From Gemmatimonadales bacterium (lineage in GTDB: Bacteria > Gemmatimonadota > Gemmatimonadetes > Gemmatimonadales > GWC2-71-9): 64,000 nt of DNA. Positions 10,986 to 62,036 of this stretch are shown here, piece by piece (the first letter of the stretch is position 1; each line of letters begins with the position of its first letter). Where the stretch lies: NCBI GenBank assembly GCA_035693225.1, contig DASSGV010000086.1, positions 1,335 through 65,334 on the forward strand, given 5' to 3'. Made by a program: the position numbers and the translations under genes. Under the pieces are notes generated by a model. That model was not told the DNA's origin. It saw only the letters and a list, made by a program, of their open reading frames with translations, and did not search any database.

Positions 10986-11059
<74 letters not shown>

Positions 11060-14446: not shown

Positions 14447-14660
14447 AGCTAACAGCTATCAGCTATCAGCTATCGGCTACTAGCTATCAGCTATCAGCTA
14501 TCAGTGACTCCGTGCGCAATAAGAAATCGCTAAGACACAAGGGCCCCTCCCTTCAACCGACTGATCGCTGATAGCTCTTTACTGATAGCCGATAGCTGAT
14601 AGCTGGCTGCTGATAGCTGATAGCCGATAGCTGATAGCTCTGTGCTGATAGCTGATAGCT
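14447..14660. repeat. inverted arrays of the 8-nt word GCTGATAG/CTATCAGC around a ~56-nt AT-richer core
   Basis: The left arm 14447-14504 is (agctatc)n. The right arm 14561-14660 is (gctgatag)n, its reverse complement. It lies in the divergent czcD/BNR intergenic region. Confidence 0.85.
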
Positions 14661-19006: not shown

Positions 19007-19053
19007 AGAGTGAAGAGTGAAGAGGGGGAGTGAAGAGAAAGCGTGAAGAGTGG
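18987..19053. repeat. left arm of inverted repeat (GTGAAGAG words) flanking a four-helix-bundle gene
   Basis: Sequence gagaagaagagtgaagagtgaagagtgaagagtgaagagggggagtgaagagaaagcgtgaagagtgg. It is colinear with the reverse complement of 19548-19625 and contains the corC stop codon. Confidence 0.85.
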
Positions 19054-19131
19054 AGCTGGAAGCGCGATCTTCTGCGCTGGGGCGAGCAGGAATGGTTACC
19101 CGCCGATGGGCGGCGCAGGTAAGATCGTCCG

Positions 19132-19518
19132 ATGCGTGATCATACCAGCCTGAAAGCGTGGCAGTGCGCTCGTGCCGTAGCGTTCGGGGTGCTGCGCCTG
19201 GGACGTTCGCACTGGAAACCGTGGGCGGCAACACACTTCGACCAGGCGCTTCGAGCCTCGTTGTCGGTCCAGCTCAACATCGCCGAGGGTTATGCCTTCG
19301 GGGACGGACCCACATTCGTCCGTCATCTCCGGATCGCCTATGGCTCAGCGGTGGAGACGGGGGACATCCTCGTGTTGCTCAGGGATGCAGAGGTGGCAGA
19401 CATCGAGACCCTGGCGTCGCTGATCGATGCCAATGTCGAGGGCAAGGCGTGTTTGCTGGGATTGCTCCGACGGCGGAATGGCTGGCGCCCGGCCCAAGCC
19501 GGCACCCACCGATCGTGA
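19132..19518 (+). CDS. four-helix-bundle protein (PF05635 / TIGR02436, '23S rRNA intervening sequence protein', Avd-like)
   Basis: 128 aa with a diverged family pattern: L.AWQ.A......L......W......Q.LRAS.SV..NIAEGY......F...L.IAYGS..E. Confidence 0.8.
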   Translation: MRDHTSLKAWQCARAVAFGVLRLGRSHWKPWAATHFDQALRASLSVQLNIAEGYAFGDGPTFVRHLRIAYGSAVETGDILVLLRDAEVADIETLASLIDANVEGKACLLGLLRRRNGWRPAQAGTHRS

Positions 19519-19547
19519 CGGCCAATACCTTGCCTCTCCCGTTATCA

Positions 19548-19625
19548 CCCTCCCCTTTTCACTCTTCACTTCTCCTCTTCACTCCCCCTCTTCACTTTTC
19601 ACTCTTCACTTGTCACTTCTCCCCC
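19548..19625. repeat. right arm of inverted repeat (CTCTTCAC words)
   Basis: Sequence ccctccccttttcactcttcacttctcctcttcactccccctcttcacttttcactcttcacttgtcacttctccccc. It contains the last codons and the stop of pdxA on the minus strand. Confidence 0.85.
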
Positions 19626-40859: not shown

Positions 40860-41716
40860 CCACGGGCGAACTCCTCGGCGCCCACGTATCCACCGCCGGC
40901 GGGCCCCAGACGGCGCCGCCGCGTGGCGTCGACATCGGCGCCACCGCCATCCAGCTCTTCACCAAGACCCCGAACCAGTGGCGGGAACCGGTCCTCTCCG
41001 ACGAGACGATCGCCGCTTGGCGGAAGGCGTGGACGGAGAGCGGGCTCGGTGTGGCGGTGTCCCACGACAGCTACCTGATCAACCTCGCGTCCCCCGACGC
41101 GGCGCTGCGCAAGCGATCGATCGCCTCCTTCACCGCGGAACTCACCCGCTGCACCCAGCTCGGCATCCCGTACGTGGTGTCCCACCCCGGCAACTTCATG
41201 GACGACCGAGACCAGGGGCTCACCCGGAACGCCGCGGCGTACGCCGAGTGCCTCGAGTCGGTGCCAGGACCGGTGATGGTGCTGATGGAGACCACCGCCG
41301 GCACCGGCACCGCCCTCGGCAGCACCTTCGAGGAACTGGCGGAGCTCCGGGCCCGGATGCCCAAGGCGGTCCAGGCGCGGGTCGGGTACTGTGCCGATAC
41401 CTGTCACATCTACGCCGCGGGATACGACCTCGTCGGCGACTACGACGGCGTCTGGGAACGCTTCGACCGGAGCTGCGGGCTCGAACGGCTCCGCTGCCTC
41501 CACCTGAACGACTCCAAGACGCCGTTCAACTCCCATCGTGACCGGCACGGACTGATCGCGGAGGGATCGCTGGGGGCCGAACCCTTCCGCCGCATCATGA
41601 ACGACCCGCGGATGACCGGCGTGGCCAAGATCCTGGAGACCCCGAAGAGCGAGGATATGGTGACCAACGACCGGAAGATGCTGGCAAGACTGCGGGGGTA
41701 CGTCGGGAAGAAGTGA
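40838..41716 (+). CDS. nfo: endonuclease IV (AP endonuclease family 2)
   Basis: LGAHVS..GG, HDSYLINLAS, VSHPG, ETTAG and CADTCH motifs. It overlaps the preceding gene by 22 nt. Confidence 0.92.
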   Translation: MAPAKKVTTGELLGAHVSTAGGPQTAPPRGVDIGATAIQLFTKTPNQWREPVLSDETIAAWRKAWTESGLGVAVSHDSYLINLASPDAALRKRSIASFTAELTRCTQLGIPYVVSHPGNFMDDRDQGLTRNAAAYAECLESVPGPVMVLMETTAGTGTALGSTFEELAELRARMPKAVQARVGYCADTCHIYAAGYDLVGDYDGVWERFDRSCGLERLRCLHLNDSKTPFNSHRDRHGLIAEGSLGAEPFRRIMNDPRMTGVAKILETPKSEDMVTNDRKMLARLRGYVGKK

Positions 41717-41935
41717 GAAGTAAGAAGTAAGAAGTGAGAAGGAAGAAGTGAGAGGGGAGAGGTAAGAAGTGAGAAGTGAGAAGGGATAGTGAAGGGTGAA
41801 AAGTGAAGAGTGAAGGGTAGTGACGAGTGAAGAGCGAAGAGTAAGAAGCGAGGAGCCCAGGTTTTCGCCGCCCGCTTGTCCCTTCTTACTTCTCACTCTT
41901 AACTCGTCACTTCTCCCCCCCTCCCCCTTCCCCGA
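41714..41935. repeat. purine word array (GTGAGAAG/GTAAGAAG/GTGAAGAG) ending in a hairpin with its pyrimidine complement
   Basis: gtgacgagtgaagagcgaagagtaagaag (left) versus cttcttacttctcactcttaactcgtcac (right) shows 4 mismatches in 29 by hand. The loop is about 30 nt. The nfo stop TGA is the first word. Confidence 0.8.
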
Positions 41936-45628: not shown

Positions 45629-47220
<1,592 letters not shown>

Positions 47221-47227
<7 letters not shown>

Positions 47228-47390
47228 ACGGTCGCGTAACTGATCGCGTGAAAGAACGCGTAACTGATCGCGTGGACGGCCGCGTGAGAGTCGTGTAACT
47301 GATCGCGTAAGAGAACGCGTAACAGAACGCGTGAAAAGCCGCGTGACTGATCGGGTGAAGAGCCGCGTGACTGATCGCGTGGACGGCTGC
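47221..47390. repeat. left arm of inverted repeat (CGCGTAAC/TGATCGCG/TGA.. words)
   Basis: Sequence cgcgtgaacggtcgcgtaactgatcgcgtgaaagaacgcgtaactgatcgcgtggacgg... The pckA stop lies in the first word. Confidence 0.85.
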
Positions 47391-47456
47391 GCGGAAATGA
47401 TCGGTATCGGGTGATTTTGGTTGCCGGTGGGTGGGGGTGACCCGATAACTTGGGGG

Positions 47457-47807
47457 ATGGACCCCTACGAGCGCTTCGACGCGTGGACGCGATCGCACGA
47501 ACTGGCCGTTGCGGTGCACCGCGCTACCCGGAACTGGCCGCCGGACGAACGCTTCGGGCTCGTTGCCCAGGTGCGCCGAGCGGCCTTTTCAGTCCCGGCC
47601 AATATCGTCGAGGGACGTGCCAGAAGGGGGCCCAAGGAATTCCGCCGGTTTCTCGACATCGCGTGGGCGTCGCTCGCCGAAGTCGGTTACACTCTGCGAT
47701 ACGCACACGATGTGGGTTACTTGACGCCTGAAGCACACGCCGAGCTCGAGCACGCACGGGCAAAGGCCGGCCGATCGCTCTACGCCCTGCTTCGCAATAT
47801 GAGTTGA
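47457..47807 (+). CDS. four-helix-bundle protein (PF05635 / TIGR02436, Avd / 23S rRNA IVS protein family)
   Basis: MDPYERFDAWTRSHELAVAVHRATRNWPPDERFGLVAQVRRAAFSVPANIVEGRARRGPKEFRRFLDIAWASLAEVGYTLRYAHDVGYL is a close match to the family consensus. Confidence 0.9.
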   Translation: MDPYERFDAWTRSHELAVAVHRATRNWPPDERFGLVAQVRRAAFSVPANIVEGRARRGPKEFRRFLDIAWASLAEVGYTLRYAHDVGYLTPEAHAELEHARAKAGRSLYALLRNMS

Positions 47808-47813
47808 GCTTTG

Positions 47814-47928
47814 CGCGGTCAGTTACGCGATCACTCACGCGATCATTCACGCGGTCAGTTACGCGATTATGTACGCGGTCAGTTACGCGATCACCCACGC
47901 GATCAGTTACGCGCCATTTCACCCGATC
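47814..47928. repeat. right arm of inverted repeat (CGCGATCAGTTACGCG words)
   Basis: Sequence gcgcggtcagttacgcgatcactcacgcgatcattcacgcggtcagttacgcg..., the reverse complement of the left-arm words. It ends within ~10 nt of the HD-gene ATG. Confidence 0.85.
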
Positions 47929-47936
47929 CGTCCCCC

Positions 47937-49223
47937 ATGCCCATTCCCCCCGACTTCGAGATCGTCCGCGACCCGGTCTGGGACAACATCCGTCTCGACC
48001 GCCCCGTCGCGACACTGGTCGACACACCCACCGTCCAGCGGCTCCGCTACGTGCGCCAGCTGGGCCACGCCTTCCTGGTCTACCCCGGCGCCACCCACTC
48101 CCGCTTCGAACACGCACTCGGCACCTACCACCTGGCCCGGAGCGCCCTGGTGGCGCTGGAAGAGCGGGGCGAACTGGACGGCGTGCCGGAGGAGGAACGG
48201 CTGGCGGTGCGGCTGGCGGCATTGCTGCACGACATTGGCCACTACCCCTTTTCCCACGCGCTCGAAGAGGCAGGCTTTCCCGACCACGAATCGCTGGGCC
48301 AGGCCAAGCTCTCCCGCGGCCCCCTGGGCGACTCGCTCCGCTCCCTCGGCGGCGACGCGCTCATCGCGCGCATCGGCGAGCTCATCCGCGGCAAGAGCGC
48401 GTCGCCGCTGGCGGGACTCATCTCCGGATCTCTTGACCTCGACAAGATCGACTACCTGAGTCGAGACGCGCGGATGTGCGGGGTGCCGTACGGGACCGTG
48501 GACGTCAACCGGCTCCTGGCGGCGCTGGCACTGGTGGAGGTAGGTGGTGGAAGACGGGAGGCGGGGGTTCACGAGAAGGGGGTGAGTGCCCTCGAATCGC
48601 TCCTCTTTGCCAAGTACCAGATGTACCGGAACGTCTACTGGCACCACGCCGTGCGCTCCGCCACCTCGATGTTCAAGCGGGCGGTGCGGAACGCCGTGGC
48701 ACGCAAGGTACTGACCCCCGCGGCAATTGCCGACGCCACCGATGCGAGCCTGGAAGAGGCCCTCCTTCGCGACGACCCGACCGGACTGGCACGGGCGGTA
48801 CACGAACGCCGACTCTACAAGCGGGCCCTCGACATCGCCGCCGCCGACCTTCCCGCCGATATCCAGCCCTGGCTCTCGGAGGACGCCGATCTTCTGGAGC
48901 GGGTCGAGGATGCGCTTGCCAGGGAGCTGGGTCTCAAACCGGGAGAGCTGCTGCTCGACTTCCCGAGCCGCCCCTCGATGCTCTCGGTCGATCTCCCCCT
49001 CCGCACCCGCACCGGCGGCACCGAGCGCCTCACCGACGAGGGGCGTGCCGGCCAGCTCGGCCTCCCCCGCGTGGCGGAAGAGCTCTACCAGAGCGCCCGG
49101 CGGCTCCGGGTGTTCACGGCAGAGCGCGTAAAGAGCGGTTTGGAGCGTGTGCTGGCGGTGGTGACGTTGCCGAGCGCGGAGATCGAGAAGCGGGTGAAGG
49201 AGGGGAAGGCGTTGCTGGCGTGA
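47937..49223 (+). CDS. HD-domain phosphohydrolase (COG1078-type, dNTP triphosphohydrolase-like)
   Basis: HSRFEHALGTYHLA and LAALLHDIGHYPFSHALE. The ORF extension from 47811 translates the repeat arm (GQLRDHSRDHSRGQLRD) and was rejected. Confidence 0.85.
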   Translation: MPIPPDFEIVRDPVWDNIRLDRPVATLVDTPTVQRLRYVRQLGHAFLVYPGATHSRFEHALGTYHLARSALVALEERGELDGVPEEERLAVRLAALLHDIGHYPFSHALEEAGFPDHESLGQAKLSRGPLGDSLRSLGGDALIARIGELIRGKSASPLAGLISGSLDLDKIDYLSRDARMCGVPYGTVDVNRLLAALALVEVGGGRREAGVHEKGVSALESLLFAKYQMYRNVYWHHAVRSATSMFKRAVRNAVARKVLTPAAIADATDASLEEALLRDDPTGLARAVHERRLYKRALDIAAADLPADIQPWLSEDADLLERVEDALARELGLKPGELLLDFPSRPSMLSVDLPLRTRTGGTERLTDEGRAGQLGLPRVAEELYQSARRLRVFTAERVKSGLERVLAVVTLPSAEIEKRVKEGKALLA

Positions 49224-49255
49224 ATGAGAAGAGGAGGCGAAGAGAGGAGGAGAAG

Positions 49256-49286
49256 AACGGGGCTCCGAGCTGATTCGGGGCCCCGT
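49256..49286 (+). terminator. terminator-type hairpin H1 (family AACGGGGCTCCG-loop-CGGGGCCCCGT)
   Basis: aacggggctccgagctgattcggggccccgt lies 33 nt after the HD-gene stop. The stem is better on plus-strand RNA (G-U pair rather than a C-A mismatch). Confidence 0.55.
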
Positions 49287-49804
49287 CGTCGCACGTCGGC
49301 CGATACCGCTGCGTCGAGCGGGGCCAGCCCGTGCACCAACAGGCCCGGCGTTTCGAGCGGCCGGTGGGGAGCGCCTCAGTGACCGCGCGCCGCCGCTGCG
49401 CCACGGTCACCACTCTTGTCCTGGCAAGTCCTTGCGAACCAGGAGGTTGGACGCCTGGTCGGGCACCACCCGCATCGGTCCTCCTCGGTGAGGGCCGGTA
49501 AGAATATCTAGGTCCAGCCGGTGGGGGTCACGTCAGAAGGTCTATGGCAACCGGCGGGATTTGGCAAACTGGGAGTGCACCAAAGCTTGCCGTTGCGTCT
49601 TGCTGTCTAACTTTGTGACGGTCGTGAATTCTCCACGTGTGCGATTTCTGATGGTTGACTCCACGCATTCCAATCAATACACTGGCATCTGTGCATGATG
49701 CTAGATGACACTATCGTGTAGAAGCCCGTATCGGCTGTCGATTCTGGCCTCGGCCGCACGAGTTCGTGGCGAGTGCGACCGGTCAAGTTTCTGAGCGAGA
49801 CGAT

Positions 49805-50407
49805 ATGCGAACATCCACTCCATTGTCGATCTCCCGACATCGTATCAGCATTGGGGCGCTGATCTTTGCGCTTGCCATGGTGTCCGATTGTTCGTCGCTA
49901 ACGGCTCCGCGGCCGTTACCGACGGTACTCGTCACAAACACGATGTGCGATGCTGCCCACTGCGGCACGCTCGAGATTCGAGCGTTTGTCTGGAAGTTCA
50001 CAGTCCCACAGCAACCTTGGGGGCTGGAGGTGCTGGGATATGTGCGGCCCGGGCAGGCATGCCTCACGTTTCCGGCATCGTGGCCTTTCAGTATCATCGG
50101 CCCTGACAGCACGGGCCGAATTGACACCACGACGATCACCTGGACCCCGAATGATACGATCCCGATCTATTTAATAGCGGTCGATTCCACGTTCTTCCAC
50201 TCGCAGCTCGACAGCGCACAGATCGACAGCGTGCAACGAGGAATTTGGCCCTTTGATGGTGTCGCTTCCGGGAGCGTTGGGGAAACGGGGAACTTTGTAC
50301 CCGGAGATGCACCTGGTTGGAGCATCACCTTCCCGAGCCCACCGGGCGCGCCAACCCTCTTCCAGGGCGGTGTTCGAATTACAGCGGACAGCGTATGCAA
50401 GCCGTGA
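49805..50407 (+). CDS. secreted hypothetical protein (200 aa)
   Basis: Signal-like RHRISIGALIFALAMVSDC. No recognisable motif. Lower-GC codon usage. The alternative start at 49766 is less likely. Confidence 0.5.
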   Translation: MRTSTPLSISRHRISIGALIFALAMVSDCSSLTAPRPLPTVLVTNTMCDAAHCGTLEIRAFVWKFTVPQQPWGLEVLGYVRPGQACLTFPASWPFSIIGPDSTGRIDTTTITWTPNDTIPIYLIAVDSTFFHSQLDSAQIDSVQRGIWPFDGVASGSVGETGNFVPGDAPGWSITFPSPPGAPTLFQGGVRITADSVCKP

Positions 50408-50486
50408 ATACCTGGCAAACGGCTTTACCGTTCCCTACTTCACGACATATCTGGCCAACCAAGAGCGGCTACTGCGGAGGTTTCGT

Positions 50487-51764
50487 ATGGCGCCACGCCG
50501 AACTACGTTCACGCTACTCGCGCTAGTCTTACCCTCACTGTTGCTCGTCTCCGCCTGCGGTGAGACATCAACGCAGCCCAACACACCGCTTGGTGGAATG
50601 AGCCGATCCAATGCGGCTCCGCCAAGTGACTATGTTGCAACCCCAGCGGGCTGGTATCATCGCTCGTGTGTTCATGAGATTCCCAATGGCGCCCGTGTGG
50701 ACGCCAAGGGACTCGTCACCCGTAGCGACCGAAGCACCTTTCAAATCCCTCAGTGCTCGTACCCCATCTATCCTAGCGCACCGGGGCTCAGCGCACAGGC
50801 CATACCGGCTTCGCCCACAAACAATGGTTGGATCGAATTCGCGTCCTACCAGTTGCCCTCCGGCAACAGCTTCCGTCAACTCACCGCGGGCTGGCATATC
50901 GGAGCCGCGCCAACAGGTGCTTACACTGGTACGCAGCTTTTCTACAGTTTTCCCGGTCTCGAAGATCTTCTAGATCCGACGGTCTATATCATCCAGCCGG
51001 TGATTCAATATGGCTACAATGGCAGCTTCGGCGGATCGTACTGGACCGCAGCGTCGTGGCGCTGTAACTCCGGAAGCGATTGCCGGTATGGGACTCCGAT
51101 CGTCGCAGCCGTCGGGGACTCTGTGTACGGAAGTGTGCAGGCCAGCGCGTGCGTGAACGGTATATGCACCTGGACAATTTCCGTGGTAGATGTGACCAAG
51201 GGCACGCGCTCCGATTGGACGGCCGATGATACGGACAACTACGATTGGGTGACAGGCGGGGCTGTTGAAGTCAACGACCTCACCGAATGCAACCAATACC
51301 CCGATACCGGCGTGTATTATTCGAGCATCTCGCTGTACGATCGATACGGGAGCCGAACCACACCGGCGTGGGCCAACTCCCTGCCGCTGAACCCCAGCCC
51401 GTCGTGTGGGTTTGATGTTGCCTCGGGACCGACCACCGTGAACCTGTTCTACAATAGACCGCCACCGCCGCCACCACCATCACCGCTATCAAACTCCATC
51501 TATGCCAATCCACCATCGTATACTGCACAGCCGACCGGCGGTACCCTGCCGTACAGCTATTCGTGGGAGTGGTGCGCGATCAACTGTTACACGCAATATT
51601 CTCCTGCCAAGGCGAGCAGCTCAGTGCCCGACGTAGTTTCGCAGGGCTGGCATACCTTCTCAACAAGCCGGTCGGTCCAATGGACGATGTCGCAGAGTAC
51701 GTTGCGCTCGACCGTGACTGATGCGCACAGCGCGCAGGCTGTGGCCACGAATTACGTCCAGTGA
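50487..51764 (+). CDS. lipoprotein with possible glutamic-peptidase (G1/eqolisin)-like beta-sandwich domain, poly-Pro linker and PKD-like C-terminal domain
   Basis: GGAGG lies 6 nt before ATG 50487. Lipobox LLLVSAC. Gln-containing motif IIQPVIQYG and Glu-containing motif GGAVEVND are spaced as in G1 peptidases (weak, by eye). PPPPPPPP linker. GGTLPYSYSWEW. Confidence 0.6.
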   Translation: MAPRRTTFTLLALVLPSLLLVSACGETSTQPNTPLGGMSRSNAAPPSDYVATPAGWYHRSCVHEIPNGARVDAKGLVTRSDRSTFQIPQCSYPIYPSAPGLSAQAIPASPTNNGWIEFASYQLPSGNSFRQLTAGWHIGAAPTGAYTGTQLFYSFPGLEDLLDPTVYIIQPVIQYGYNGSFGGSYWTAASWRCNSGSDCRYGTPIVAAVGDSVYGSVQASACVNGICTWTISVVDVTKGTRSDWTADDTDNYDWVTGGAVEVNDLTECNQYPDTGVYYSSISLYDRYGSRTTPAWANSLPLNPSPSCGFDVASGPTTVNLFYNRPPPPPPPSPLSNSIYANPPSYTAQPTGGTLPYSYSWEWCAINCYTQYSPAKASSSVPDVVSQGWHTFSTSRSVQWTMSQSTLRSTVTDAHSAQAVATNYVQ

Positions 51765-51843
51765 CGCCACTGGCATAAACAAGTCAATTGGCTCGAACCA
51801 GGCCACTCACCGCGGCTGTCGCAGCGGGCTTGTCCGCAACGCC

Positions 51844-51877
51844 AACGGGGCTCCGATGTGATTCGGGGCCCCGTTTT
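51844..51877 (+). terminator. terminator-type hairpin H2 (same family as H1) with T-tail
   Basis: aacggggctccgatgtgattcggggccccgtttt lies between the convergent lipoprotein gene and the parE-like gene. Confidence 0.6.
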
Positions 51878-51896
51878 GGTATGCGTCAGCCGGGCC

Positions 51897-52193
51897 TCAG
51901 CCGCGCGACTGCCAGGTATTCGGGTCCCGGCGTGCGTGAACGCATCCGACGACGACCGTGACGGTCTCCTCAGCCACGTAGTAGACGGCGTACGGAAAGC
52001 GCCGGAGGTTCGCCCGACGCACCGTCCCGTGCACTATCGGAAAGAGATCCGGCTGACGCGCGATGGCCGACAGCGTCGCCCGGACGTTCCGGAGGAACTC
52101 GGCGCCCAATCCGATCGACCGCTCCTCGTACCAGGCCCCCGCCGCCGCGAGATCGAGTTCCGCCTCGGGCTCAAGCAACAAGCGCGGCGTCAT
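51897..52193 (-). CDS. type II toxin, RelE/ParE family
   Basis: 98 aa. The LEPEAELDLAAAGAWYEE...RRFPYAVYYVAEETVTVVVGCVHARRDP pattern is typical of ParE-like toxins. Its start overlaps the antitoxin stop by 4 nt. Confidence 0.8.
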   Translation of the reverse strand: MTPRLLLEPEAELDLAAAGAWYEERSIGLGAEFLRNVRATLSAIARQPDLFPIVHGTVRRANLRRFPYAVYYVAEETVTVVVGCVHARRDPNTWQSRG

Positions 52194-52405
52194 CCGCCGC
52201 GCTTCTCGAGATCCCGCATCGCCTCATCCCACGGCCGCCCTCGTTGGGGATCCTGGCGGTGCAGTTCCATCCGGCGATCGAGCTCGGCCCGATGGCTCTC
52301 CAGGATCGGGACGGACTCGGAGGGCAGGCTGTCCCACAGGTCCTCGGCGAGCTGAATGCGCTCAGCGGGGCTCAGACGGCTGAAGTCAAAGGCCGGGGCG
52401 GACAT
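52190..52405 (-). CDS. putative addiction-module antitoxin component (TIGR02574-like)
   Basis: LSPAERIQLAEDLWDSL....HRAELDRR pattern. 71 aa, immediately upstream of the toxin. Confidence 0.75.
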   Translation of the reverse strand: MSAPAFDFSRLSPAERIQLAEDLWDSLPSESVPILESHRAELDRRMELHRQDPQRGRPWDEAMRDLEKRGG

Positions 52406-52573
52406 GGCCGAAATCTTGGGAATCCGGGGCGGGCTGGCAAGAGGGGGCCGGGATCAGGCCGTATGGCGACAATCCCGCGAAGGGGGTGACCCGCGCGGGG
52501 CGAAGCTGGCCCCGGCGGATCTTCCCGGCCTGCTTGATGCTGGCCACCAGTCGCTTGAAATCAGTCGGGTTCA
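52386..52573 (-). pseudogene. possible remnant of an XRE-type antitoxin (N-terminal motif only)
   Basis: GAGGAGG lies 7 nt before ATG 52573. MNPTDFKRLVASIKQAGKIRRGQLRPARVT resembles the N-terminal leader of HTH antitoxins, but no HTH follows and the frame runs into the next gene. Confidence 0.3.
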
Positions 52574-52664
52574 TTTCAATTCCTCCTCGATCAGCCGCCC
52601 AAGAATAAGGAGGCAAGAGAAAAGAGACAACGCAGATCGAGATCAATACAAGATCAGGAATGTC

Positions 52665-52697
52665 AAACCGGGCTCCGAAGAATTCGGAGCCCCGTTT
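52665..52697 (-). terminator. terminator-type hairpin H3 (same family)
   Basis: aaaccgggctccgaagaattcggagccccgttt lies downstream of the orphan antitoxin gene on the minus strand. Confidence 0.5.
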
Positions 52698-52794
52698 CAT
52701 TCACATTACTCCCAGCCCAGGTGCCTGGCCTGATACCAAGAAAAAGCCTCCGCGACGTCCGCGAAGGCCTCGTTCCGAAAGCGGATCGCGACAG

Positions 52795-53013
52795 TCACTC
52801 TTGCCGCCGGAGGCGCTCCAGGACCTCTTCCCATGGAAGGCTTGGAGCCGCAGACGGGTCATCCAACCGACGATCCAACTCCGCCCGGTGCCAGTCGGGG
52901 ATCGGGACCGCCTCCGGCGTGGCGGCGATGCCATCCCAGATATCCTCGACCAGGCGAAGCCGTTCTTCGAGCGGGAGCCGGCTGATCTCGTCCATAATGG
53001 TCTTGGGCGTCAT
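52795..53013 (-). CDS. orphan addiction-module antitoxin component (TIGR02574-like), no cognate toxin downstream
   Basis: LPLEERLRLVEDIWDGI....WHRAELDRRL, a paralogue of 52190..52405. About 100 nt of non-coding sequence and hairpin H3 follow instead of a toxin ORF. Confidence 0.7.
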   Translation of the reverse strand: MTPKTIMDEISRLPLEERLRLVEDIWDGIAATPEAVPIPDWHRAELDRRLDDPSAAPSLPWEEVLERLRRQE

Positions 53014-53072
53014 AGGATTATCTGCGGGTTCCGCGCCCCTGGGGCAAGCGCCGATAGCGGATAGACCGCCCG

Positions 53073-53729
53073 CTACTTCGCCAAACGATACAGGTAGTTG
53101 CGCTGAGCGACCGGCCCGATGCCAGGGATGTCGGTCCGCCGGATGAACGTGACCAGCTTCTTGCTCGAGTCATCAACGCTGTCCTTCACCCAGAACCCGA
53201 CCCGTTTCCCGTCGACCAATCCGACCACCCGATAGGAATTCGCCGCCGCATTGACCTCCACTTCAAATTGCTCCCCCGCCCTCCAGGGGTGAGCGATGCT
53301 GGTGTCGGGCTCGGAACCGAGCGCATTCACCTTGACGTCGAGGTCATAGGAAACCGCGGGGCCGTGGTTCTCGGCGTACCACAGGATCGTGTCCGCCTGG
53401 CCGATGTGGACCCGGTTCGAGTCCACGAGCCGGCACGCAGCCTCCGGCCTGCAGTGCAGGATGCTGTCGCTGACAACGGCGACCATCTCGGACTGGGGCA
53501 GCGGAAAGGCGCTGATGGTGACATTCGGATGGGCGGCCGTTCCGCCCCGGAGCCGCACCTGCGTCGAGCCCGACGAGGGGTGCCATTGGCCGGCCGGGAC
53601 CGTGTAGGTGGTGATGAGCTGCCAACTGTTGTCCGACCCCGCGGCCGGCACGATCGGCTCCCGAGCGCATCCCCCGAGGAGGAGGCTCACACAGGCGGCA
53701 CCGATGGCGTTACCAGACTTGACGGGCAC
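53073..53729 (-). CDS. hypothetical lipoprotein (218 aa)
   Basis: GTG 53729 is preceded by AGAGG. Lipobox SLLLGGC. The rest has no recognisable motif. The ORF extension to 53927 covers the pyrimidine-rich leader. Confidence 0.55.
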   Translation of the reverse strand: MPVKSGNAIGAACVSLLLGGCAREPIVPAAGSDNSWQLITTYTVPAGQWHPSSGSTQVRLRGGTAAHPNVTISAFPLPQSEMVAVVSDSILHCRPEAACRLVDSNRVHIGQADTILWYAENHGPAVSYDLDVKVNALGSEPDTSIAHPWRAGEQFEVEVNAAANSYRVVGLVDGKRVGFWVKDSVDDSSKKLVTFIRRTDIPGIGPVAQRNYLYRLAK

Positions 53730-53996
53730 AAGACCTCTAGCAGGAGACAAGAGAAAAGGGAGAACGCAGATCGGGAAAGCTGCGGAAACAGGGAAACGAA
53801 GAGGGCCCTTGGTCAACCCGGCCCCTTTGAGCGAGCTTACCTGCAAACCAGACCAAGGCCAACACCGCTCCCCAAGTCTATCTGCGCCGGCCCGCCTGAC
53901 GGGGAAGCTTACGGCAGTCCTTAGCAATCAATCATGTCCCGCGCCGCCGCGCCTCCGCCCGGTCAGCAGCAAGCGCGCGTTAGATGGCCGCCCTTG

Positions 53997-55490
53997 TCAC
54001 TGCGATACAACAAACGTCCCGAGCATCGGAAGCAATGCCCGCTCGTATTCTCCTTCGCGCACGCCAGGGTATGGCTTCGACTGCATCCGTACCACAATCA
54101 GGTCGAGCGCCGGTAGGACGTGGATATCTGTGTCAAGGTGTCCGTGAGTCGCGTAGGCGTGCGCCTCCGGGTCAAGCCACCACAGCAGGCCGTAATGTGA
54201 GTTCAGCGGTTGCGGTGTCGTCAGTGTATCCAACGCGTGCTCAGGGAACACTTGCGTCCCGAGCCAGTTGCCACGATGGAGGGCAAGTACTCCGATCCGT
54301 GCAAAATCACGTGCCGTGGTATACATACCCGCATATGTCCACGCGTGACCCGCCTGATCAATGTGCAATGAAGTGTTGCGCATACCAGCGGGACCGAACA
54401 ATCGCTTTGCGGCGTAGGCCTGAATCGGTTCGCCGGCGGCGGCATCGAGAATGGGGGACAACAACTGCGCGCCTTCGTTGCTGTACGCCCAAGTCGTGCC
54501 CGGGGATTCCTTGGGCACCAAGCCGATTACGAACCGGTCTTTGTCGGCAACAAATCCGACACTGCTGTCGGCACGTTGCATTGGCAAACCCGATGTCATA
54601 CTCATCAGCTGGCGGATAGTGACAAGACCCCGAACGCCAGTGCACCAGCTGGCGATATATCTGCATACCGTGTCGTCGAGCCCATGGAGCTTGCCGTCAG
54701 CCCGAAGCATGGTGATCAGGAGGCCCGTCACCGACTTCGTTGACGACATCGCCATCATCGGCTCGGCATATCGGGACGAATACCATTCTTGGACAATTTT
54801 ATCGTGGCGGATCACGAGGCACGCGTCCGCACCCGTACGCTGGCAAAGCTCTAAGTGTGCTTTCAGCGCAGTAGGTGACACCCCGACGGACTCAGCTGTC
54901 GTTAACTGCCAGAAGGTGTCTGCGGCCCGAACAGCGGAAGTCACGGCCCCCGCCCCGCCGCTCACGACGGCGGGCTTCTCGTCGCGCAGGGCGCGGAGCT
55001 CCCGCACGCTTGACGAATCACCGGTGGCCGCACAGAGGCTGTCGGTAGTGCGTAGTGCCACGGTAGCTTCGGCCGTCCTCGACAGGCGGTGCTCGGCGTA
55101 GGTCAATGACACCGCAACGCGGCACCGGTCGGTACCCGAGAGACCCGGCTTGGAGAGCTGTTCGCGAGCAATGCTGGAGGCGGCAACCCATTGACCCACG
55201 CGGTTGAGCTTCATGGCGGTGTCGACCGGTAGCTGCGCAGCCAGCGAGCCCGCGAACGCTAGTACGGCCCCGGCGGTCGCTGACACGACGATGAGGCTGC
55301 TGCCGCCGAAACTCACGAGCCGCCGCACGCCACCTCCAGGCAGCATGAGACTCGGCCATCTAAAGGCCGCGCTTGAGCTGCGGGCCCAAGCCAGCCGTGC
55401 GGATGGAGTGTGACGCGTCGCCGCGCTGCGATTTACCCGTCGAGTGAACAGAACGCCTCCACGGAACGGGCTCGCCAGCGTCATGCGCAT
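53997..55490 (-). CDS. serine hydrolase (beta-lactamase/transpeptidase-like fold) with ~200-aa N-terminal extension
   Basis: SxxK motif (MSSTKS), Y-x-N motif (WAYSNEG), and a third motif variant HGH. TM/signal RRLVSFGGSSLIVVSATAGAVLAFAG. Start uncertain (55490 or ATG 55346). Confidence 0.8.
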   Translation of the reverse strand: MRMTLASPFRGGVLFTRRVNRSAATRHTPSARLAWARSSSAAFRWPSLMLPGGGVRRLVSFGGSSLIVVSATAGAVLAFAGSLAAQLPVDTAMKLNRVGQWVAASSIAREQLSKPGLSGTDRCRVAVSLTYAEHRLSRTAEATVALRTTDSLCAATGDSSSVRELRALRDEKPAVVSGGAGAVTSAVRAADTFWQLTTAESVGVSPTALKAHLELCQRTGADACLVIRHDKIVQEWYSSRYAEPMMAMSSTKSVTGLLITMLRADGKLHGLDDTVCRYIASWCTGVRGLVTIRQLMSMTSGLPMQRADSSVGFVADKDRFVIGLVPKESPGTTWAYSNEGAQLLSPILDAAAGEPIQAYAAKRLFGPAGMRNTSLHIDQAGHAWTYAGMYTTARDFARIGVLALHRGNWLGTQVFPEHALDTLTTPQPLNSHYGLLWWLDPEAHAYATHGHLDTDIHVLPALDLIVVRMQSKPYPGVREGEYERALLPMLGTFVVSQ

Positions 55491-55502
55491 GTTAGAGCCA
55501 TG

Positions 55503-55922
55503 TCAAGACAAGCCAGATGGCGAATCCTTCGCGATGTGCGCCTCATAGCCAGCCACCACGGCGTCATAGACCAAGTCCGCGGATTCAGGAGCTGGGCGAT
55601 TGACAGCAAGGCAAGCATCCCTGATCCCATCTACTTGCATCCTGGCCGCAAACTTCCCTGGGTACCCATCGACGTTGTAGAGGCGCTGCCGAAACATCGT
55701 CATGGTGGATGTCATCACGACATTGGCCAACTTCGGGTCCTTCTTGTTGCGCATGTAGATGAACATGTCTACAAGGTACCACGCCACTTTATCGGCATCG
55801 TCGAAGCTCAGGCCATCCTCGATGTAGGCCGCCCGGATTGCCGAATGAATACGCCTCATCCGTGTCGTATTGAAAAGGAAGAGCGCGCCTGCGCCGAGTG
55901 CCAGCAGCAATATCCAACTCAT
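55503..55922 (-). CDS. hypothetical N-terminally anchored membrane protein (139 aa)
   Basis: ATG 55922, MSWILLLALGAGALFLF. It lies 13 nt upstream of the hydrolase gene. The 99-aa upstream extension of the ORF crosses repeat/leader sequence. Confidence 0.5.
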   Translation of the reverse strand: MSWILLLALGAGALFLFNTTRMRRIHSAIRAAYIEDGLSFDDADKVAWYLVDMFIYMRNKKDPKLANVVMTSTMTMFRQRLYNVDGYPGKFAARMQVDGIRDACLAVNRPAPESADLVYDAVVAGYEAHIAKDSPSGLS

Positions 55923-56136
55923 GATGGGCGGCTCTCCTATGGTCGGCGTACGCCTAACCAGTATTGGATCACAGTCCTGCTGGATACTGTACCGCCCCCG
56001 CAAGTTGCGCCAGTACAGGGGTGACGTGAGCAAACAATGGAGTCTCTCAAATGCGTTAGGCACCTCGTCCACGACCGGAGCTGCGTTTTCTCCTGTCTCT
56101 TTTCTCTCTCTTCTCCTCGCCTCATCCCCAAAAGCC

Positions 56137-56169
56137 AACGGGGCCCCGTCCACCACCGGAGCCCCGTTT
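56137..56169 (-). terminator. terminator-type hairpin H4 (inverted copy of H1)
   Basis: aacggggccccgtccaccaccggagccccgttt. Its reverse complement matches the H1 arms. The stem is better on minus-strand RNA. It lies 40 nt after the PP2C stop. Confidence 0.55.
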
Positions 56170-56208
56170 ACTTTCCCTCGCCTTCCCCCGCTTTCCTCCG
56201 CTTTCCCC

Positions 56209-56937
56209 TCACTCCTCAATCCTCACCACGATCGCCGTGATGTTGTCGAGCCCGCCGCGCCGGTTGGCGTCGGTGATGAGCGCATCGACCCATTCCTGTG
56301 GCCCGCCGGGTGAGGAGAGGATCTTCTGCAGGTGCTCGTCCTCCAGCATCCCGGTGAGGCCGTCGGAGGCGAGGAGGAGGACGTCTCCGGCGCGGAGGGC
56401 GCCGAAGTAGAGGTCGGGAAGCACGTCGGCGTTGGCGCCGACGCAGCGGGTGATGACGTTGCTGTAGGGGTGGACCCGCGCCTGTTCCGGCGTCAGCAAC
56501 CCGGCATCTACCTGTTCCTGCACGTAGGAGTGGTCCTTGGTGACCTGGAGCAGCTGACCATCCCGCAGCAGGTACGCTCGACTATCTCCCACCTGCCCCA
56601 TCAGGTACCGCCCCGCCAGGAGGACCAGCGAGGTGGCGGTGGTGCCCATCCCGCGCTTGTCGTGCTCGGTGAGGGTGCGCTCGAAGATGGCGGCGTTGGC
56701 GGCGCGGATGGCACCGCGCATCCGCTCGCCGACCTCTTCGTCGGTCAGGCCGCGGAGGGCGCCGAGCTCCTTGGCGATCGTGTTGACCGCCATCTCGCTG
56801 GCGACTTCGCCGGCGGCGTGGCCCCCCATCCCGTCGGCCACGATGAAGACGCCGCGATCGTCCTGCATGAGGTAGTTGTCCTCATTGCCGGAGCGGACGA
56901 TGCCGACGTCAGTGCGGGCCGCGCAGGAGAAGCGCAC
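56209..56937 (-). CDS. PP2C-family Ser/Thr protein phosphatase
   Basis: RTDVGIVRSGNEDN, VADGMGGHAAGEVAS, LLASDGL, DNITAIVV. GTG 56937 lies 5 nt after the FHA-gene stop. The ORF extension to 57402 is inside the FHA gene. Confidence 0.9.
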   Translation of the reverse strand: MRFSCAARTDVGIVRSGNEDNYLMQDDRGVFIVADGMGGHAAGEVASEMAVNTIAKELGALRGLTDEEVGERMRGAIRAANAAIFERTLTEHDKRGMGTTATSLVLLAGRYLMGQVGDSRAYLLRDGQLLQVTKDHSYVQEQVDAGLLTPEQARVHPYSNVITRCVGANADVLPDLYFGALRAGDVLLLASDGLTGMLEDEHLQKILSSPGGPQEWVDALITDANRRGGLDNITAIVVRIEE

Positions 56938-61417: not shown

Positions 61418-61456
61418 GTCGGGCGAAACGTACCGGGAGGGAGCGGGGCGGGTCAA

Positions 61457-62036
61457 CGAGTGGTGAGTGGTGAGTGGCGAGAGGCGAGTGGCGAGTGGTG
61501 AGTGGCGGGTGGCGGGTGGCGGGTGACGAGGGGTAAGGCGTGCGCCAATGAACTGTCATCCCGACCCCGAGCGGCGCGAGGGGGAGGGGCCTTCTCCGCT
61601 GGCCCTCGAACTGGACGACAGTGATTAGTGCGAGTGGCGAGTGGCGAGAGGCGAGGGGTAGGGGGTGCACCAATGAACTGTCATCCCGACCCCGAGCAGC
61701 GCGAGGGGGAGGGACCTTCTCCACTGGCCCCCGAACTGGGCGACAGTGATTAGTGCGAGTGGCGAGAGGCGAGAGGCGAGTGGCGAGGGGCGAGGGGTAG
61801 GGAGTGCGCCAATGAACTGTCATCCCGACCCCGAGTAGCGCGAGGGGGAGGGACCTTCTCCGCTGGCCCCGGATCGGGCGGCACCGGTCCGATGTTGACG
61901 GACAAGGTCCCTCGGTCGGCGCTGCCTCCCTCGGGATGACAGCACATTGTAAGCACGGCCCCCGCGACTCACGCCCACGACCCACTCACCACTAACCACT
62001 CTCCACTCGCCACTCGCCACCAACCACCCGCCACCC
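61457..62036. repeat. composite repeat: GCGAGTGG/GCGGGTGG word arrays + 3 tandem MITE-like half units + closing MITE end + complementary CCACTCGC word array
   Basis: ccaatgaactgtcatcccgaccccgag recurs at 61545, 61670 and 61809 (periods 125 and 139). The closing end ggtccctcggtcggcgctgcctccctcgggatgacag finishes at 61942. The right array 61966-62036 is made of the reverse complements of the left-array words. Confidence 0.85.

What the first reader, a model, noticed from the sequence alone, without database searches (positions are those of the whole stretch)
49226..56225. The 6.8-kb low-GC island sits in the payload position of a word-array/hairpin structure between convergent genes
The HD gene (plus strand) ends in gcgTGAatgagaagaggaggcgaagagaggaggagaagaa followed by hairpin H1. 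The PP2C gene (minus strand) ends, in its own sense, in gagTGAggggaaagcggaggaaagcgggggaaggcgagggaaagtaa followed by hairpin H4.

H1 and H4 are inverted copies of one another. Reverse-complemented H1 reads acggggccccg-N8-cggagccccgt, and so does H4.

Removing 49287-56136 would leave a convergent gene pair separated only by purine words and a hairpin. That is the same layout as corC/pdxA, whose payload is the 4HB gene. This suggests such structures act as insertion hot spots or cargo slots that can hold nothing, MITEs, a 4HB gene, or a multi-gene island. This is an inference from layout only.
Basis: inference. Interest (0 to 1): 0.55.

Follow-up and report, generated by a model that had tools for sequence, protein, structure and literature searches.

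The report
Foreign gene islet at a terminator hot spot
A 6.8-kb block of foreign, lower-GC accessory genes sits exactly where sister species have only one terminator hairpin between two converging core genes, and it is exchanged between strains by ordinary homologous recombination, so it is a clearly delimited but not exotic genomic islet.

Summary
Window 49287-56136 has 61.3% GC against 68.9% elsewhere, and GC3 of 0.66-0.70 against 0.86-0.93 in core genes. It is bracketed by two copies of one 30-nt hairpin (H1, H4), with two more inside (H2, H3).

The window is from a Gemmatimonadales MAG. Across 65 relatives this convergent junction holds anything from -14 bp to 4 kb of unrelated cargo. The neighbouring pckA-HD junction never exceeds 250 bp.

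The island occurs at the same site in contigs from 12 sequencing runs. Between strains, HD and PP2C differ by 3-7.5%, almost all at third codon positions. The block 49047-56247, including words and hairpins, differs by about 0.15%. This indicates recent exchange by homologous recombination in the flanking genes.

Cargo:
- a lipoprotein pair that also occurs next to a tRNA gene elsewhere, one member with a glutamic-peptidase-like fold
- ParE toxin-antitoxin genes plus truncated remnants
- a serine hydrolase

No recombinase is present. The claim that word arrays act as dedicated cargo slots is only partly supported: most relatives carry cargo here without arrays.

The parts
47937..49223 (+). HD-domain phosphohydrolase, the conserved left flank. 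The real start is MPIPPDFE.
   Evidence: Pfam HD plus HD_assoc_2. 100% match to P0070, 'HD domain-containing protein [Gemmatimonadales bacterium]'. Relatives align from residue about 44 of the longer ORF.
49047..56247 (.). Block that is nearly identical between strains. It comprises the island plus the last 177 bp or fewer of HD, both word runs, H1, H4 and the last 39 bp or fewer of PP2C.
   Evidence: Second-strain contigs differ at 40 sites in HD 48005-49046 but at only 5 sites in 3.4 kb of island. L212 differs at 16 sites in PP2C 56248-56431 and at 0 sites in 55077-56247.
49224..49256 (+). Purine word run after the HD stop (array A)
   Evidence: Weak similarity to inner unit c (p = 0.03).
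49257..49286 (+). Hairpin H1 (T|G type, G.U wobble in the HD sense). No T-tract follows it.
   Evidence: RNA fold -26.3 kcal/mol, z = -4.0. Not flagged as a terminator.
49287..49804 (+). Spacer: about 200 nt GC-rich, then low-GC DNA with a sigma-70-like promoter match at 49655-49683 upstream of isl1
49805..50407 (+). isl1, a lipoprotein of unknown function (GC3 0.66)
   Evidence: Gene call in L081/L213. 63% identical homolog next to an isl2 homolog in L087-L089. No Pfam or NCBIfam hit.
50487..51764 (+). isl2, a lipoprotein (GC3 0.66) with a predicted glutamic-peptidase (eqolisin/neprosin)-like beta-sandwich fold
   Evidence: 69 homologs, all unnamed. AlphaFold pLDDT 86.7. Foldseek match to 2ifr_A, E = 1.3e-8, TM-score 0.70 normalised to the target.
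51845..51874 (+). Hairpin H2 between the convergent isl2 and ParE genes. Direct copy of H1 (28/30).
   Evidence: RNA fold -29.8 kcal/mol on the + strand against -23.3 on the - strand.
51897..52193 (-). ParE-family toxin
   Evidence: Pfam PF05016, 26.9 bits against a cut-off of 23
52190..52405 (-). Antitoxin (Unstab_antitox / TIGR02574)
52386..52574 (-). 62-aa fragment with a good ribosome-binding site. It looks like the N-terminus of an antitoxin fused to upstream DNA, so it is a probable gene remnant.
   Evidence: Read from the sequence. No family hit. Inference.
52600..52642 (+). Purine-rich unit a (AAGAGAAAAGAGACA..ACGCAGATC)
   Evidence: 89% identical to unit b (D8). a-b p < 0.0005 and c-a p = 0.0025.
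52667..52696 (.). Hairpin H3 (variant, T|A type), lying exactly where a ParE-like gene is truncated
52700..52799 (-). Truncated 5' fragment of a second ParE-like toxin gene (VTVAIRFRNEAFADVAEAFSWYQARHLGWE*)
   Evidence: Translation. The resemblance to the ParE N-terminus was judged by eye, so this is an inference.
52795..53013 (-). Second antitoxin (Unstab_antitox / TIGR02574), now without a partner toxin
53073..53729 (-). isl6, a lipoprotein-like protein of unknown function (GC3 0.85)
   Evidence: Gene call in L081. No family hit.
53735..53776 (+). Purine-rich unit b
53997..55328 (-). Serine hydrolase of the beta-lactamase / class C family (GC3 0.70)
   Evidence: Pfam PF00144, E = 1.5e-32. 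No NCBIfam equivalog reaches its cut-off. The named homologs, at 47-51% identity, are from Pyrinomonadaceae and other Acidobacteriota.
55503..55922 (-). isl8, a small protein of unknown function with a hydrophobic N-terminus (GC3 0.69)
   Evidence: Gene call in L081 and L212. No family hit.
56084..56129 (-). Purine-rich unit c (purine sense on the - strand), immediately inside H4
56138..56167 (-). Hairpin H4 (C|A on the + strand, which gives a G.U wobble in the PP2C sense). Ortholog of the single hairpin of the sister species.
   Evidence: RNA fold -29.5 kcal/mol on the - strand against -21.3 on the + strand.
56168..56208 (-). Purine word run after the PP2C stop (array B). It matches the L001 HD-side words (32/36).
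56209..56937 (-). Stp1-type PP2C Ser/Thr phosphatase, the conserved right flank
   Evidence: NCBIfam NF033484, 246.5 bits against a cut-off of 230

Best explanation
Window 49287-56136 is a lineage-specific, horizontally acquired, mosaic islet of accessory genes. It lies in the terminator region between the converging core genes for an HD phosphohydrolase and a PP2C phosphatase.

The ancestral state, kept in sister species, is a short spacer holding short-word runs and one GC-rich hairpin. H4 is that resident hairpin. Across Gemmatimonadales this convergent junction is a recurrent gene gain and loss hot spot, whether or not word arrays are present.

Shown: within the species the whole block, with its word runs and both outer hairpins, is shared almost unchanged between strains whose flanking genes have diverged.

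Inferred from that pattern: the block is moved or kept by homologous recombination with crossovers in the 3' ends of HD and PP2C, as in the 'minimal mobile elements' of Neisseria, with no recombinase of its own.

Inferred, not shown: the islet was built stepwise from at least three pieces.
- the isl1-isl2 lipoprotein and peptidase-like module
- a toxin-antitoxin 'junkyard'
- the hydrolase segment
These were joined by illegitimate or short-homology recombination at copies of the resident hairpin. That would explain why hairpin copies sit at every joint, one of them exactly at a truncated toxin gene, and why each is oriented so that the transcript reading into it can form the G.U-containing, more stable stem.
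For: Foreign composition: (GC and GC3).

Absence from relatives, and the empty site with one hairpin: 65 junctions; L001; L223, L224. The 80-86% nt synteny breaks only at array sites.

Hot spot: 30 of 65 HD/PP2C gaps exceed 400 bp. They contain at least 8 gene clusters plus 31 singleton ORFs, including MacB/FtsX, TauE, DUF411, GNAT, HD-GYP, BNR, MscS, MBL and DoxX. At the pckA-HD junction 0 of 57 gaps exceed 400 bp.

Not an assembly artefact, and fixed in the population: same configuration at 99-100% identity in contigs from 12 SRA runs.

Recombination in the flanks: 40 differences in HD 48005-49046 and 16 in PP2C 56248-56431 (15 of those 16 PP2C sites, and the four HD sites checked, are third codon positions). 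This compares with 5 differences in 3.4 kb and 0 in 1.17 kb of island.

Modularity:
- The isl1-isl2 pair recurs at 63-66% aa identity between a thiF-like gene and a tRNA/smpB locus, and is low-GC there too.
- H1 and H2 are 28/30 direct repeats around exactly that module.
- A truncated ParE fragment abuts H3.
- Three copies of a purine-rich unit lie in the island.

No mobility or defence genes. No Rfam family. Strand-asymmetric hairpin stability. Definition of minimal mobile elements: PMC3787668.
Against: - No island-free strain of the same species was found, so the direction of the exchange is not settled. It could be the island spreading into diverged backgrounds, or the flanks being replaced up to the island edge.
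- The stepwise-assembly story has many free parameters. My first version, with H1 and H4 as attL/attR hybrids, was weakened when L224 turned out to carry the H4-type hairpin at the empty site.
- The hairpin stem is a generic terminator stem, found in more than 120 unrelated metagenome contigs. Some of the similarity could therefore be convergent.
- H1 lacks a T-tract, and only H3 passes the simple terminator scan.
- Only 64 kb of the genome was examined, so a genome-wide hairpin family or a distant recombinase cannot be excluded.
Confidence: 0.7

Rival explanations
1. The inverted word-array plus hairpin structure is itself a dedicated landing pad, a 'cargo slot'. Foreign DNA is captured in its centre by a structure-directed process, for example cleavage of the extruded palindrome with fill-in. 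This duplicates the hairpin on both sides of each captured piece.
For: - All four synteny breaks with L223 and L224 lie at array sites, and the window always has the larger payload.
- Both 4HB genes of the window lie between inverted arrays and have atypical GC3 of 0.72-0.74.
- H1 and H2 are a 30-nt direct duplication, exactly hairpin-sized, around the isl1-isl2 module.
- The HD-side words and inner unit c may form an inverted pair around the island (p = 0.03).
Against: - 30 of 65 relatives carry gene-sized cargo at this junction, almost all without arrays or this hairpin.
- Typical array pairs in 1.9 Mb of Gemmatimonadales DNA enclose only 10-130 bp.
- No other duplicated-hairpin insert was found among 603 hairpins.
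- Crossovers between strains lie in coding DNA, not in the hairpins.
- Array sites fail to align partly because the arrays themselves turn over fast.
- In Xanthomonas, intergenic regions with inverted heptamer arrays are more conserved than controls (PMC4692102).
Confidence: 0.18
2. The segment is an integron-like cassette array or CALIN. The hairpins would be attC-like sites recombined by an integrase encoded elsewhere.
For: - Four hairpins within 7 kb lie at the ends of gene blocks.
- The outer stem bases read AAC...GTT in H2-H4.
- The cargo is typical of chromosomal cassette arrays: toxin-antitoxin genes, lipoproteins and unknowns.
Against: - The hairpins are 30-34 nt, not 55-140 nt. They have no bipartite R''-L''/L'-R' boxes or extrahelical bases, and no RYYYAAC/GTTRRRY match beyond the triplet (read).
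- Genes lie on both strands, with their own promoter-like site.
- There is no integrase in the island, and sister contigs show no extra gene within 12 kb on either side.
- The resident hairpin exists at the empty site as an ordinary terminator.
Confidence: 0.04
3. The segment is a decayed transposon, integrative element or prophage remnant whose mobility genes have been lost.
For: - Low GC, toxin-antitoxin modules, truncated genes and terminal repeats.
- The isl1-isl2 module lies next to a tRNA gene and smpB in another genome.
Against: - No transposase, integrase or phage gene, and no recognisable fragment of one (tblastx).
- No tRNA gene at this site.
- No short target-site duplication. The terminal repeats are the resident terminator hairpin.
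Confidence: 0.05
4. The genes are ancestral and were lost in the relatives, or the contig is a metagenomic chimera.
For: Only MAG data are available. Some island genes (isl6, ParE and its antitoxin) have near-host GC3.
Against: - 65 of 65 relatives lack every island gene.
- The three sister contigs keep an intact short spacer.
- GC3 of 0.66-0.70 in four island genes (isl1, isl2, the hydrolase and isl8).
- Both junctions were assembled independently in 12 runs.
Confidence: 0.02

Closest known systems
Minimal mobile elements (MMEs) of Neisseria, and more generally integration hot spots between conserved core genes (Saunders and Snyder 2002, as described in PMC3787668)
   Same: - Variable gene content between the same two conserved flanking genes in related genomes.
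- Cargo of mostly unknown function and atypical composition.
- No mobility genes.
- Signature of homologous recombination in the flanking genes.
   Different: - The host is an uncultured Gemmatimonadales bacterium whose competence is unknown.
- The site is a convergent-gene terminator occupied by word runs and a hairpin.
- Copies of that hairpin mark the internal joints of the islet. This is not a described MME feature.
Integron cassette arrays and CALINs (clusters of attC sites lacking an integrase)
   Same: - Gene blocks separated by imperfect hairpins.
- Toxin-antitoxin genes and unknown cargo.
- No recombinase inside the array.
   Different: - The hairpins are half the minimum attC length and lack the R/L box architecture.
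- Genes lie on both strands.
- The resident copy is an ordinary terminator at the empty site.
REP/BIME/REPIN palindromes, which serve as recombination and IS-insertion targets (PMC2817692, PMC3116915, PMC12288879)
   Same: - Short GC-rich extragenic palindromes at gene ends, in alternating orientations.
- Known to attract insertions and rearrangements.
   Different: REPs occur in tens to hundreds of copies per genome and are associated with a RAYT transposase. This hairpin occurs only in the island within 64 kb, once or twice per sister contig, and singly in unrelated metagenome contigs.
Inverted pairs of intergenic heptamer tandem repeats in Xanthomonas (GGGAATC; PMC4692102), and STRR heptamers of cyanobacteria
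   Same: - Tandem 7-mers close to gene ends in intergenic regions.
- Often paired in convergent orientation, so that they can form a long stem.
- Length and sequence vary between close relatives.
   Different: - In Gemmatimonadales the word differs from site to site and from genome to genome.
- The two runs flanking this island are irregular and were not called by TRF.
- In Xanthomonas the repeat-bearing regions were reported to be more conserved than controls, not less.
23S rRNA intervening sequences carrying a four-helix-bundle (PF05635) ORF between inverted repeats
   Same: The two 4HB genes of the window (19132-19518 and 47421-47807) lie between inverted repeat arrays.
   Different: These copies sit between protein-coding genes, not in rRNA. 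The island carries no 4HB gene. No 4HB homolog was detected in the other 1.9 Mb of loci.

Membership tests
Horizontally acquired genomic island | Composition and codon usage differ from the host | tested here: met
   GC 0.613 against 0.689. GC3 0.66-0.70 in four genes against 0.86-0.93 in core genes.
Horizontally acquired genomic island | Absent from related genomes at a conserved syntenic site | tested here: met
   65 of 65 relatives lack it. Three sister contigs have gaps of 79-265 bp.
Horizontally acquired genomic island | Own integrase or transposase, tRNA target, short flanking direct repeats | tested here: not met
   No such genes. The only tRNA gene is at 10986. The flanking repeats are 30-nt near-palindromic hairpins.
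Minimal mobile element (MME) | Different gene content between the same conserved flanking genes in relatives | tested here: met
   Gaps from -14 to 3982 bp, with at least 8 gene clusters and 31 singleton ORFs. The control junction pckA-HD reaches 250 bp at most.
Minimal mobile element (MME) | Exchange by homologous recombination in the flanking genes | tested here: met
   Flanks are 3-7.5% diverged, at third codon positions where checked, against about 0.15% or less for the block. The direction of exchange is not resolved.
Minimal mobile element (MME) | Host takes up DNA naturally | not testable with these tools
   Uncultured MAG. Competence genes were not examined.
Integron cassette array / CALIN | attC sites of 55-140 nt with R''-L''...L'-R' boxes, RYYYAAC/GTTRRRY and extrahelical bases | tested here: not met
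   The hairpins are 30-34 nt, with one continuous 11-12 bp stem and only the AAC/GTT triplet. No attC covariance model was available.
Integron cassette array / CALIN | Co-oriented, mostly promoterless cassettes; intI nearby for a complete integron | tested here: not met
   Genes lie on both strands, with a promoter-like site at 49655-49683. No integrase in the island. The rest of the genome was not examined.
REP / REPIN family | Many dispersed copies per genome with an associated RAYT transposase | tested here: inconclusive
   All four copies in the 64 kb lie in the island. There are 1-2 related hairpins per sister contig. The whole genome and RAYT were not examined.
Intrinsic (rho-independent) terminator | GC-rich stem-loop followed by a U-tract, downstream of a gene | tested here: inconclusive
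   All four fold strongly (-21 to -30 kcal/mol, z from -4 to -6) and lie after stop codons. Only H3 passes the T-tract rule, and H1 has no T-tract.
Type II toxin-antitoxin module (ParE with a TIGR02574 antitoxin) | Adjacent small genes that match the toxin and antitoxin families above their curated cut-offs | tested here: met
   PF05016 at 26.9 bits against 23; PF09720 at 66.5 bits against 23.3; TIGR02574 at 62.8 bits against 31.9. The two genes overlap by 4 nt.
Inverted heptamer tandem-array pair (as in Xanthomonas) | Two tandem arrays of the same 7-8-nt word in convergent orientation | tested here: inconclusive
   Met at window sites 14447, 18991, 47221 and 61457. The runs at the HD and PP2C ends are irregular and use different words. 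The possible pairing of the HD-side run with unit c is only p = 0.03.

The most novel reading that the evidence does not exclude
The word-array and hairpin structures of this Gemmatimonadales lineage are a previously undescribed landing pad. Gene modules are captured at an extruded terminator palindrome, and the palindrome is duplicated at each capture (H1/H2 being a 30-nt palindrome-sized target duplication). This would build cassette-like arrays without a dedicated integrase. The 4HB genes and MITE-like units found inside other array pairs would be cargo of the same process.
Probability: 0.1. Interest if true: 0.8.

Novelty: new variant of a known kind. Interest (0 to 1): 0.42.

Why it matters
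- It gives a cleanly resolved example, from metagenomes alone, of how an uncultured soil phylum gains accessory genes. The evidence includes the empty site in sister species, the filled site in 12 samples, and a strain comparison that locates the recombination crossovers.
- It shows that a convergent-gene terminator can be a phylum-wide hot spot for gene gain and loss.
- The repeated terminator hairpin at every internal joint, and the pervasive site-specific inverted 7-8-mer arrays around it, are not explained by known repeat families. They could be tested directly in complete genomes.
- The cargo itself is ordinary: a peptidase-like lipoprotein pair, toxin-antitoxin genes and a serine hydrolase.

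Tried and rejected
1. H1 and H4 as attL/attR hybrids of a Campbell-type crossover between a T|A chromosomal hairpin and a C|G incoming hairpin. This fitted L001, but L224 carries the H4-type (C|A) hairpin at the empty site, so H4 is simply the resident hairpin.

2. The hairpin as a dispersed mobile repeat. The metagenome scan returned more than 120 contigs, each with a single copy and unrelated flanks, and none homologous to the window. The stem is generic. Of 80 relatives' loci, 79 have none.

3. Integron attC reading. Rejected on length and box architecture.

4. Arrays as termini of 4HB-carrying elements. No 4HB homolog was found in 1.9 Mb of other loci, although arrays are everywhere.

5. 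A recombination signature in window-versus-sister identity profiles. No clear step was seen, only a gradual 3' decline in HD.

6. Rfam and PADLOC gave nothing.

7. Exact-protein look-ups for HD, pckA and PP2C, aimed at finding island-free conspecific contigs, returned nothing on record.

8. Look-up of the closest hydrolase homolog (P0192, 83% identity) returned no DNA.

9. Part (L220 and L222) used the wrong orientation and is disregarded.

Full report
**What is there**

The window has about 69% GC and comes from a Gemmatimonadales MAG. The gene order is as follows.

| Feature | Coordinates | Strand |
|---|---|---|
| pckA | 45629-47227 | + |
| four-helix-bundle (4HB, PF05635) gene between inverted 12-mer arrays | 47421-47807 | + |
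| HD phosphohydrolase | 47937-49223 | + |
| the segment in question | 49287-56136 | |
| Stp1-type PP2C phosphatase | 56209-56937 | - |
| FHA protein | downstream of PP2C | - |

The segment has 0.613 GC against 0.689 for the rest. No other 6.85-kb stretch falls below 0.661, and the 22 lowest 1-kb windows of the 64 kb all lie in or overlap it.

GC3 shows a mosaic:
- isl1 and isl2 0.66, isl8 0.69, serine hydrolase 0.70
- second antitoxin 0.77, ParE and its antitoxin 0.81-0.84, isl6 0.85
- core genes 0.86-0.93

**The hairpins**

| Hairpin | Coordinates | Sequence |
|---|---|---|
| H1 | 49257-49286 | ACGGGGCTCCG AGCTGATT CGGGGCCCCGT |
| H2 | 51845-51874 | ACGGGGCTCCG ATGTGATT CGGGGCCCCGT |
| H3 | about 52667-52696 | ACCGGGCTCCG AAGAATT CGGAGCCCCGT |
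| H4 | 56138-56167 | ACGGGGCCCCG TCCACCAC CGGAGCCCCGT |

The full pattern gives three matches against 0.00 expected, and none elsewhere in the 64 kb.

The stem is almost a palindrome, so orientation rests on one position. H1 and H2 have a G.T pair on the + strand. H4 has it on the - strand. As RNA, each hairpin is more stable in the sense of the gene that reads into it:
- H2: -29.8 kcal/mol on the + strand against -23.3 on the - strand
- H4: -29.5 kcal/mol on the - strand against -21.3 on the + strand

The H1 and H4 loops are unrelated in either orientation. H1 and H2 are 28/30 identical as direct repeats. Only H3 passes a simple stem-plus-T-tract terminator rule, and H1 has no T-tract.

**Relatives**

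A scan with the HD protein returned 80 Gemmatimonadales loci, and pckA-HD-PP2C-FHA synteny is conserved. In the 65 loci that span the junction:
- 27 have stop-to-stop distances of -14 to +45 bp
- 38 have distances of 137 to 3982 bp

None contains a homolog of any island protein.

The inserts are unrelated to one another: 8 small clusters and 31 singleton ORFs. They encode ordinary accessory proteins such as MacB/FtsX permease, TauE, DUF411, GNAT, HD-GYP/TPR, BNR, MscS, metallo-beta-lactamase fold and DoxX. No mobility genes were seen among the 10 insert proteins scanned against Pfam. As a control, the neighbouring pckA-HD junction never exceeds 250 bp in 57 loci. The convergent HD/PP2C junction is therefore a genuine, phylum-wide gain and loss hot spot. 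Most filled sites have neither word arrays nor this hairpin.

**The empty site**

The closest relatives have HD 81-82% identical at the amino-acid level, and L001 has PP2C 93% identical. Each has one hairpin of the same stem family between the two stops.
- L001: 168 nt of purine words, aaaGGGGGCTCCG ATCGACAC CGGAGCCCCCtttt, then pyrimidine words.
- L223: 14 nt, then AACGGGGGCCCGG CACAGCT CCGGAGCCCCCGTT, then words.
- L224: (CGTGAGA)x10, whose first word supplies the HD stop codon, then a 33-nt spacer, then GGGGCCCCG TCACTCGA CGGAGCCCC, then inverted words.

The L224 hairpin has the same C|A asymmetry as H4. Its spacer contains aaaatgccaac, compared with aaaagccaac immediately left of H4. H4 is therefore the resident, ancestral hairpin.

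L223 and L224 align with window 37.2-64 kb at 80-86% nucleotide identity. The only four breaks are at 41742-41907, 47215-47947, 49223-56213 and 61447-62027. All four are word-array sites, and at each the window holds more DNA.

**Population evidence**

Exact-protein look-ups found the island at the same site in contigs from 12 sequencing runs, at 98.8-100% identity. This excludes a chimera.

A second strain (L082, L214-L216, L218, L219) differs from the window as follows:
- 40 sites within HD 48005-49046
- 5 sites in the following 3.4 kb
- 0 sites in isl1-isl2

L212 differs at 16 sites, all in PP2C 56248-56431 and 15 of them at third codon positions. It differs at 0 sites in 55077-56247.

The block 49047-56247, which includes the word runs, H1 and H4, is thus about 20 times less diverged than the genes on either side. 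The simplest reading is a recent exchange of the whole block by homologous recombination, with crossovers in the last 177 bp or fewer of HD and the last 39 bp or fewer of PP2C. This matches the behaviour described for Neisseria minimal mobile elements (PMC3787668).

The alternative is that both flanks were independently replaced up to the island edge. That needs two events, but it also involves flank recombination. I could not find an island-free contig of the same species.

**Cargo and internal structure**

- isl1 and isl2 are lipoproteins with no family assignment. The same pair, 63-66% identical, lies between a thiF-like gene and a tRNA/smpB locus in another Gemmatimonadota genome, and it is low-GC there too. 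It is therefore a mobile two-gene module.
- A confident model of isl2 (pLDDT 86.7) resembles glutamic peptidases: scytalidoglutamic peptidase at E = 1.3e-8, and also neprosin. Catalytic residues were not verified.
- The middle of the island holds a ParE toxin with a TIGR02574 antitoxin, a second solitary antitoxin, a 5' fragment of a second ParE-like gene cut off exactly at H3, and a probable antitoxin fragment.
- The right part holds a lipoprotein-like gene, a class-C-type serine hydrolase whose named homologs are acidobacterial, and a small unknown protein.
- A purine-rich unit (AAGAGAAAAGAGACA..ACGCAG.TC) occurs three times.
- There is no recombinase, phage, defence or Rfam hit.

Hairpin copies thus sit at every boundary between pieces that differ in composition and orientation. 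This is the basis for inferring stepwise assembly by recombination at copies of the resident hairpin. That step is an inference.

**Is the array and hairpin structure a cargo slot?**

Inverted pairs of tandem 7-8-mers around a short, unrelated centre are pervasive in Gemmatimonadales DNA. The same word is reused at several sites within a genome, and the first word often provides the stop codon. A precedent exists in Xanthomonas (PMC4692102).

Typical centres are 10-130 bp. Large payloads in the data are the two 4HB genes, the MITE-like triplet and this island, all in the window genome. Several results argue against a structure-directed mechanism:
- The hot spot exists without arrays.
- No other duplicated-hairpin insert exists among 603 strong hairpins in 1.94 Mb.
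- The hairpin stem is generic, present in more than 120 unrelated metagenome contigs, one copy each.
- The crossovers between strains are in coding DNA.

The layout claim is correct. The mechanistic claim remains a minority possibility, which I put at about 0.1-0.2.

**Verdict**

This is a real, well-delimited, recently exchanged accessory islet at a convergent-gene terminator hot spot. Its way of spreading is ordinary and MME-like. Two features are unusual: the resident terminator hairpin is repeated at each internal joint, and the islet lies within a lineage-specific system of inverted short-word arrays.

Noticed in passing
window 47197-47937: A four-helix-bundle gene (PF05635, 47421-47807, GC3 0.72) lies between inverted arrays of a 12-nt repeat (CGCGTAACTGAT-like, 13.5 and 8.3 copies), between pckA and HD. 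In L223 and L224 the same junction is 175-185 bp with different words and no gene. In 57 relatives it never exceeds 250 bp. Logan contigs break at this array (47876).
   Followed up: partly
window 14447-14660, 18991-19618, 41700-41935, 61457-62036; many loci (for example L224 4421-4550, L041 3098-3203, L053 9860-10011): Inverted pairs of tandem 7-8-nt words around a short, unrelated centre are pervasive in Gemmatimonadales intergenic DNA. The word differs between sites and genomes but is reused at several sites within one genome. The first word often contains the upstream gene's stop codon. Words at orthologous sites differ completely between sister species that are 80-86% identical. Apart from the single-word inverted heptamer repeats of Xanthomonas, I found no description of this.
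   Followed up: partly
window 61457-62036: Between divergent genes (LPG-synthase-like and uvrA), GTGGCGA-type arrays enclose three tandem copies of a MITE-like unit of about 120 bp (tgtcatcccgaccccgag...). L224 has only 217 bp with different words at this site.
   Followed up: no
L001 2047-2090 and 2170-2213: The last about 25 nt of the HD gene, together with the first words of the array, are duplicated about 123 bp downstream within the L001 word array. This suggests that arrays grow by local duplication that includes the gene end.
   Followed up: no
L224 9886-9909: The sister contig has a second hairpin of the same stem family (GGGGCTCCG GAGGAT CGGGGCCCT, H1-type asymmetry) in the centre of the array pair at its pckA-HD junction. 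The stem family may therefore be mildly dispersed in this lineage.
   Followed up: no
window 50487-51764 (isl2) and homologs P0002-P0069: This family of about 70 unnamed lipoproteins (the one named member is from Gemmatimonadales) has a predicted glutamic-peptidase (G1/G3)-like fold with nearly invariant E117, Q170 and E261. In at least two genomes it is paired with a smaller lipoprotein (isl1).
   Followed up: partly
L087 3661-3831 / L088 3783-4019: The isl1-isl2 homolog module in another Gemmatimonadota genome abuts what reads as a tRNA gene on the opposite strand (not run through the tRNA finder) followed by smpB. It has 0.60-0.63 GC against 0.69 in the flanks. This is a classic island context, unlike the site in the window.
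   Followed up: partly
window 56173-56208 vs L001 2087-2122: The PP2C-side word run of the window matches the HD-side word run of L001 on the opposite strand (32/36). The same word family therefore sits on opposite sides of the hairpin in the two species.
   Followed up: no
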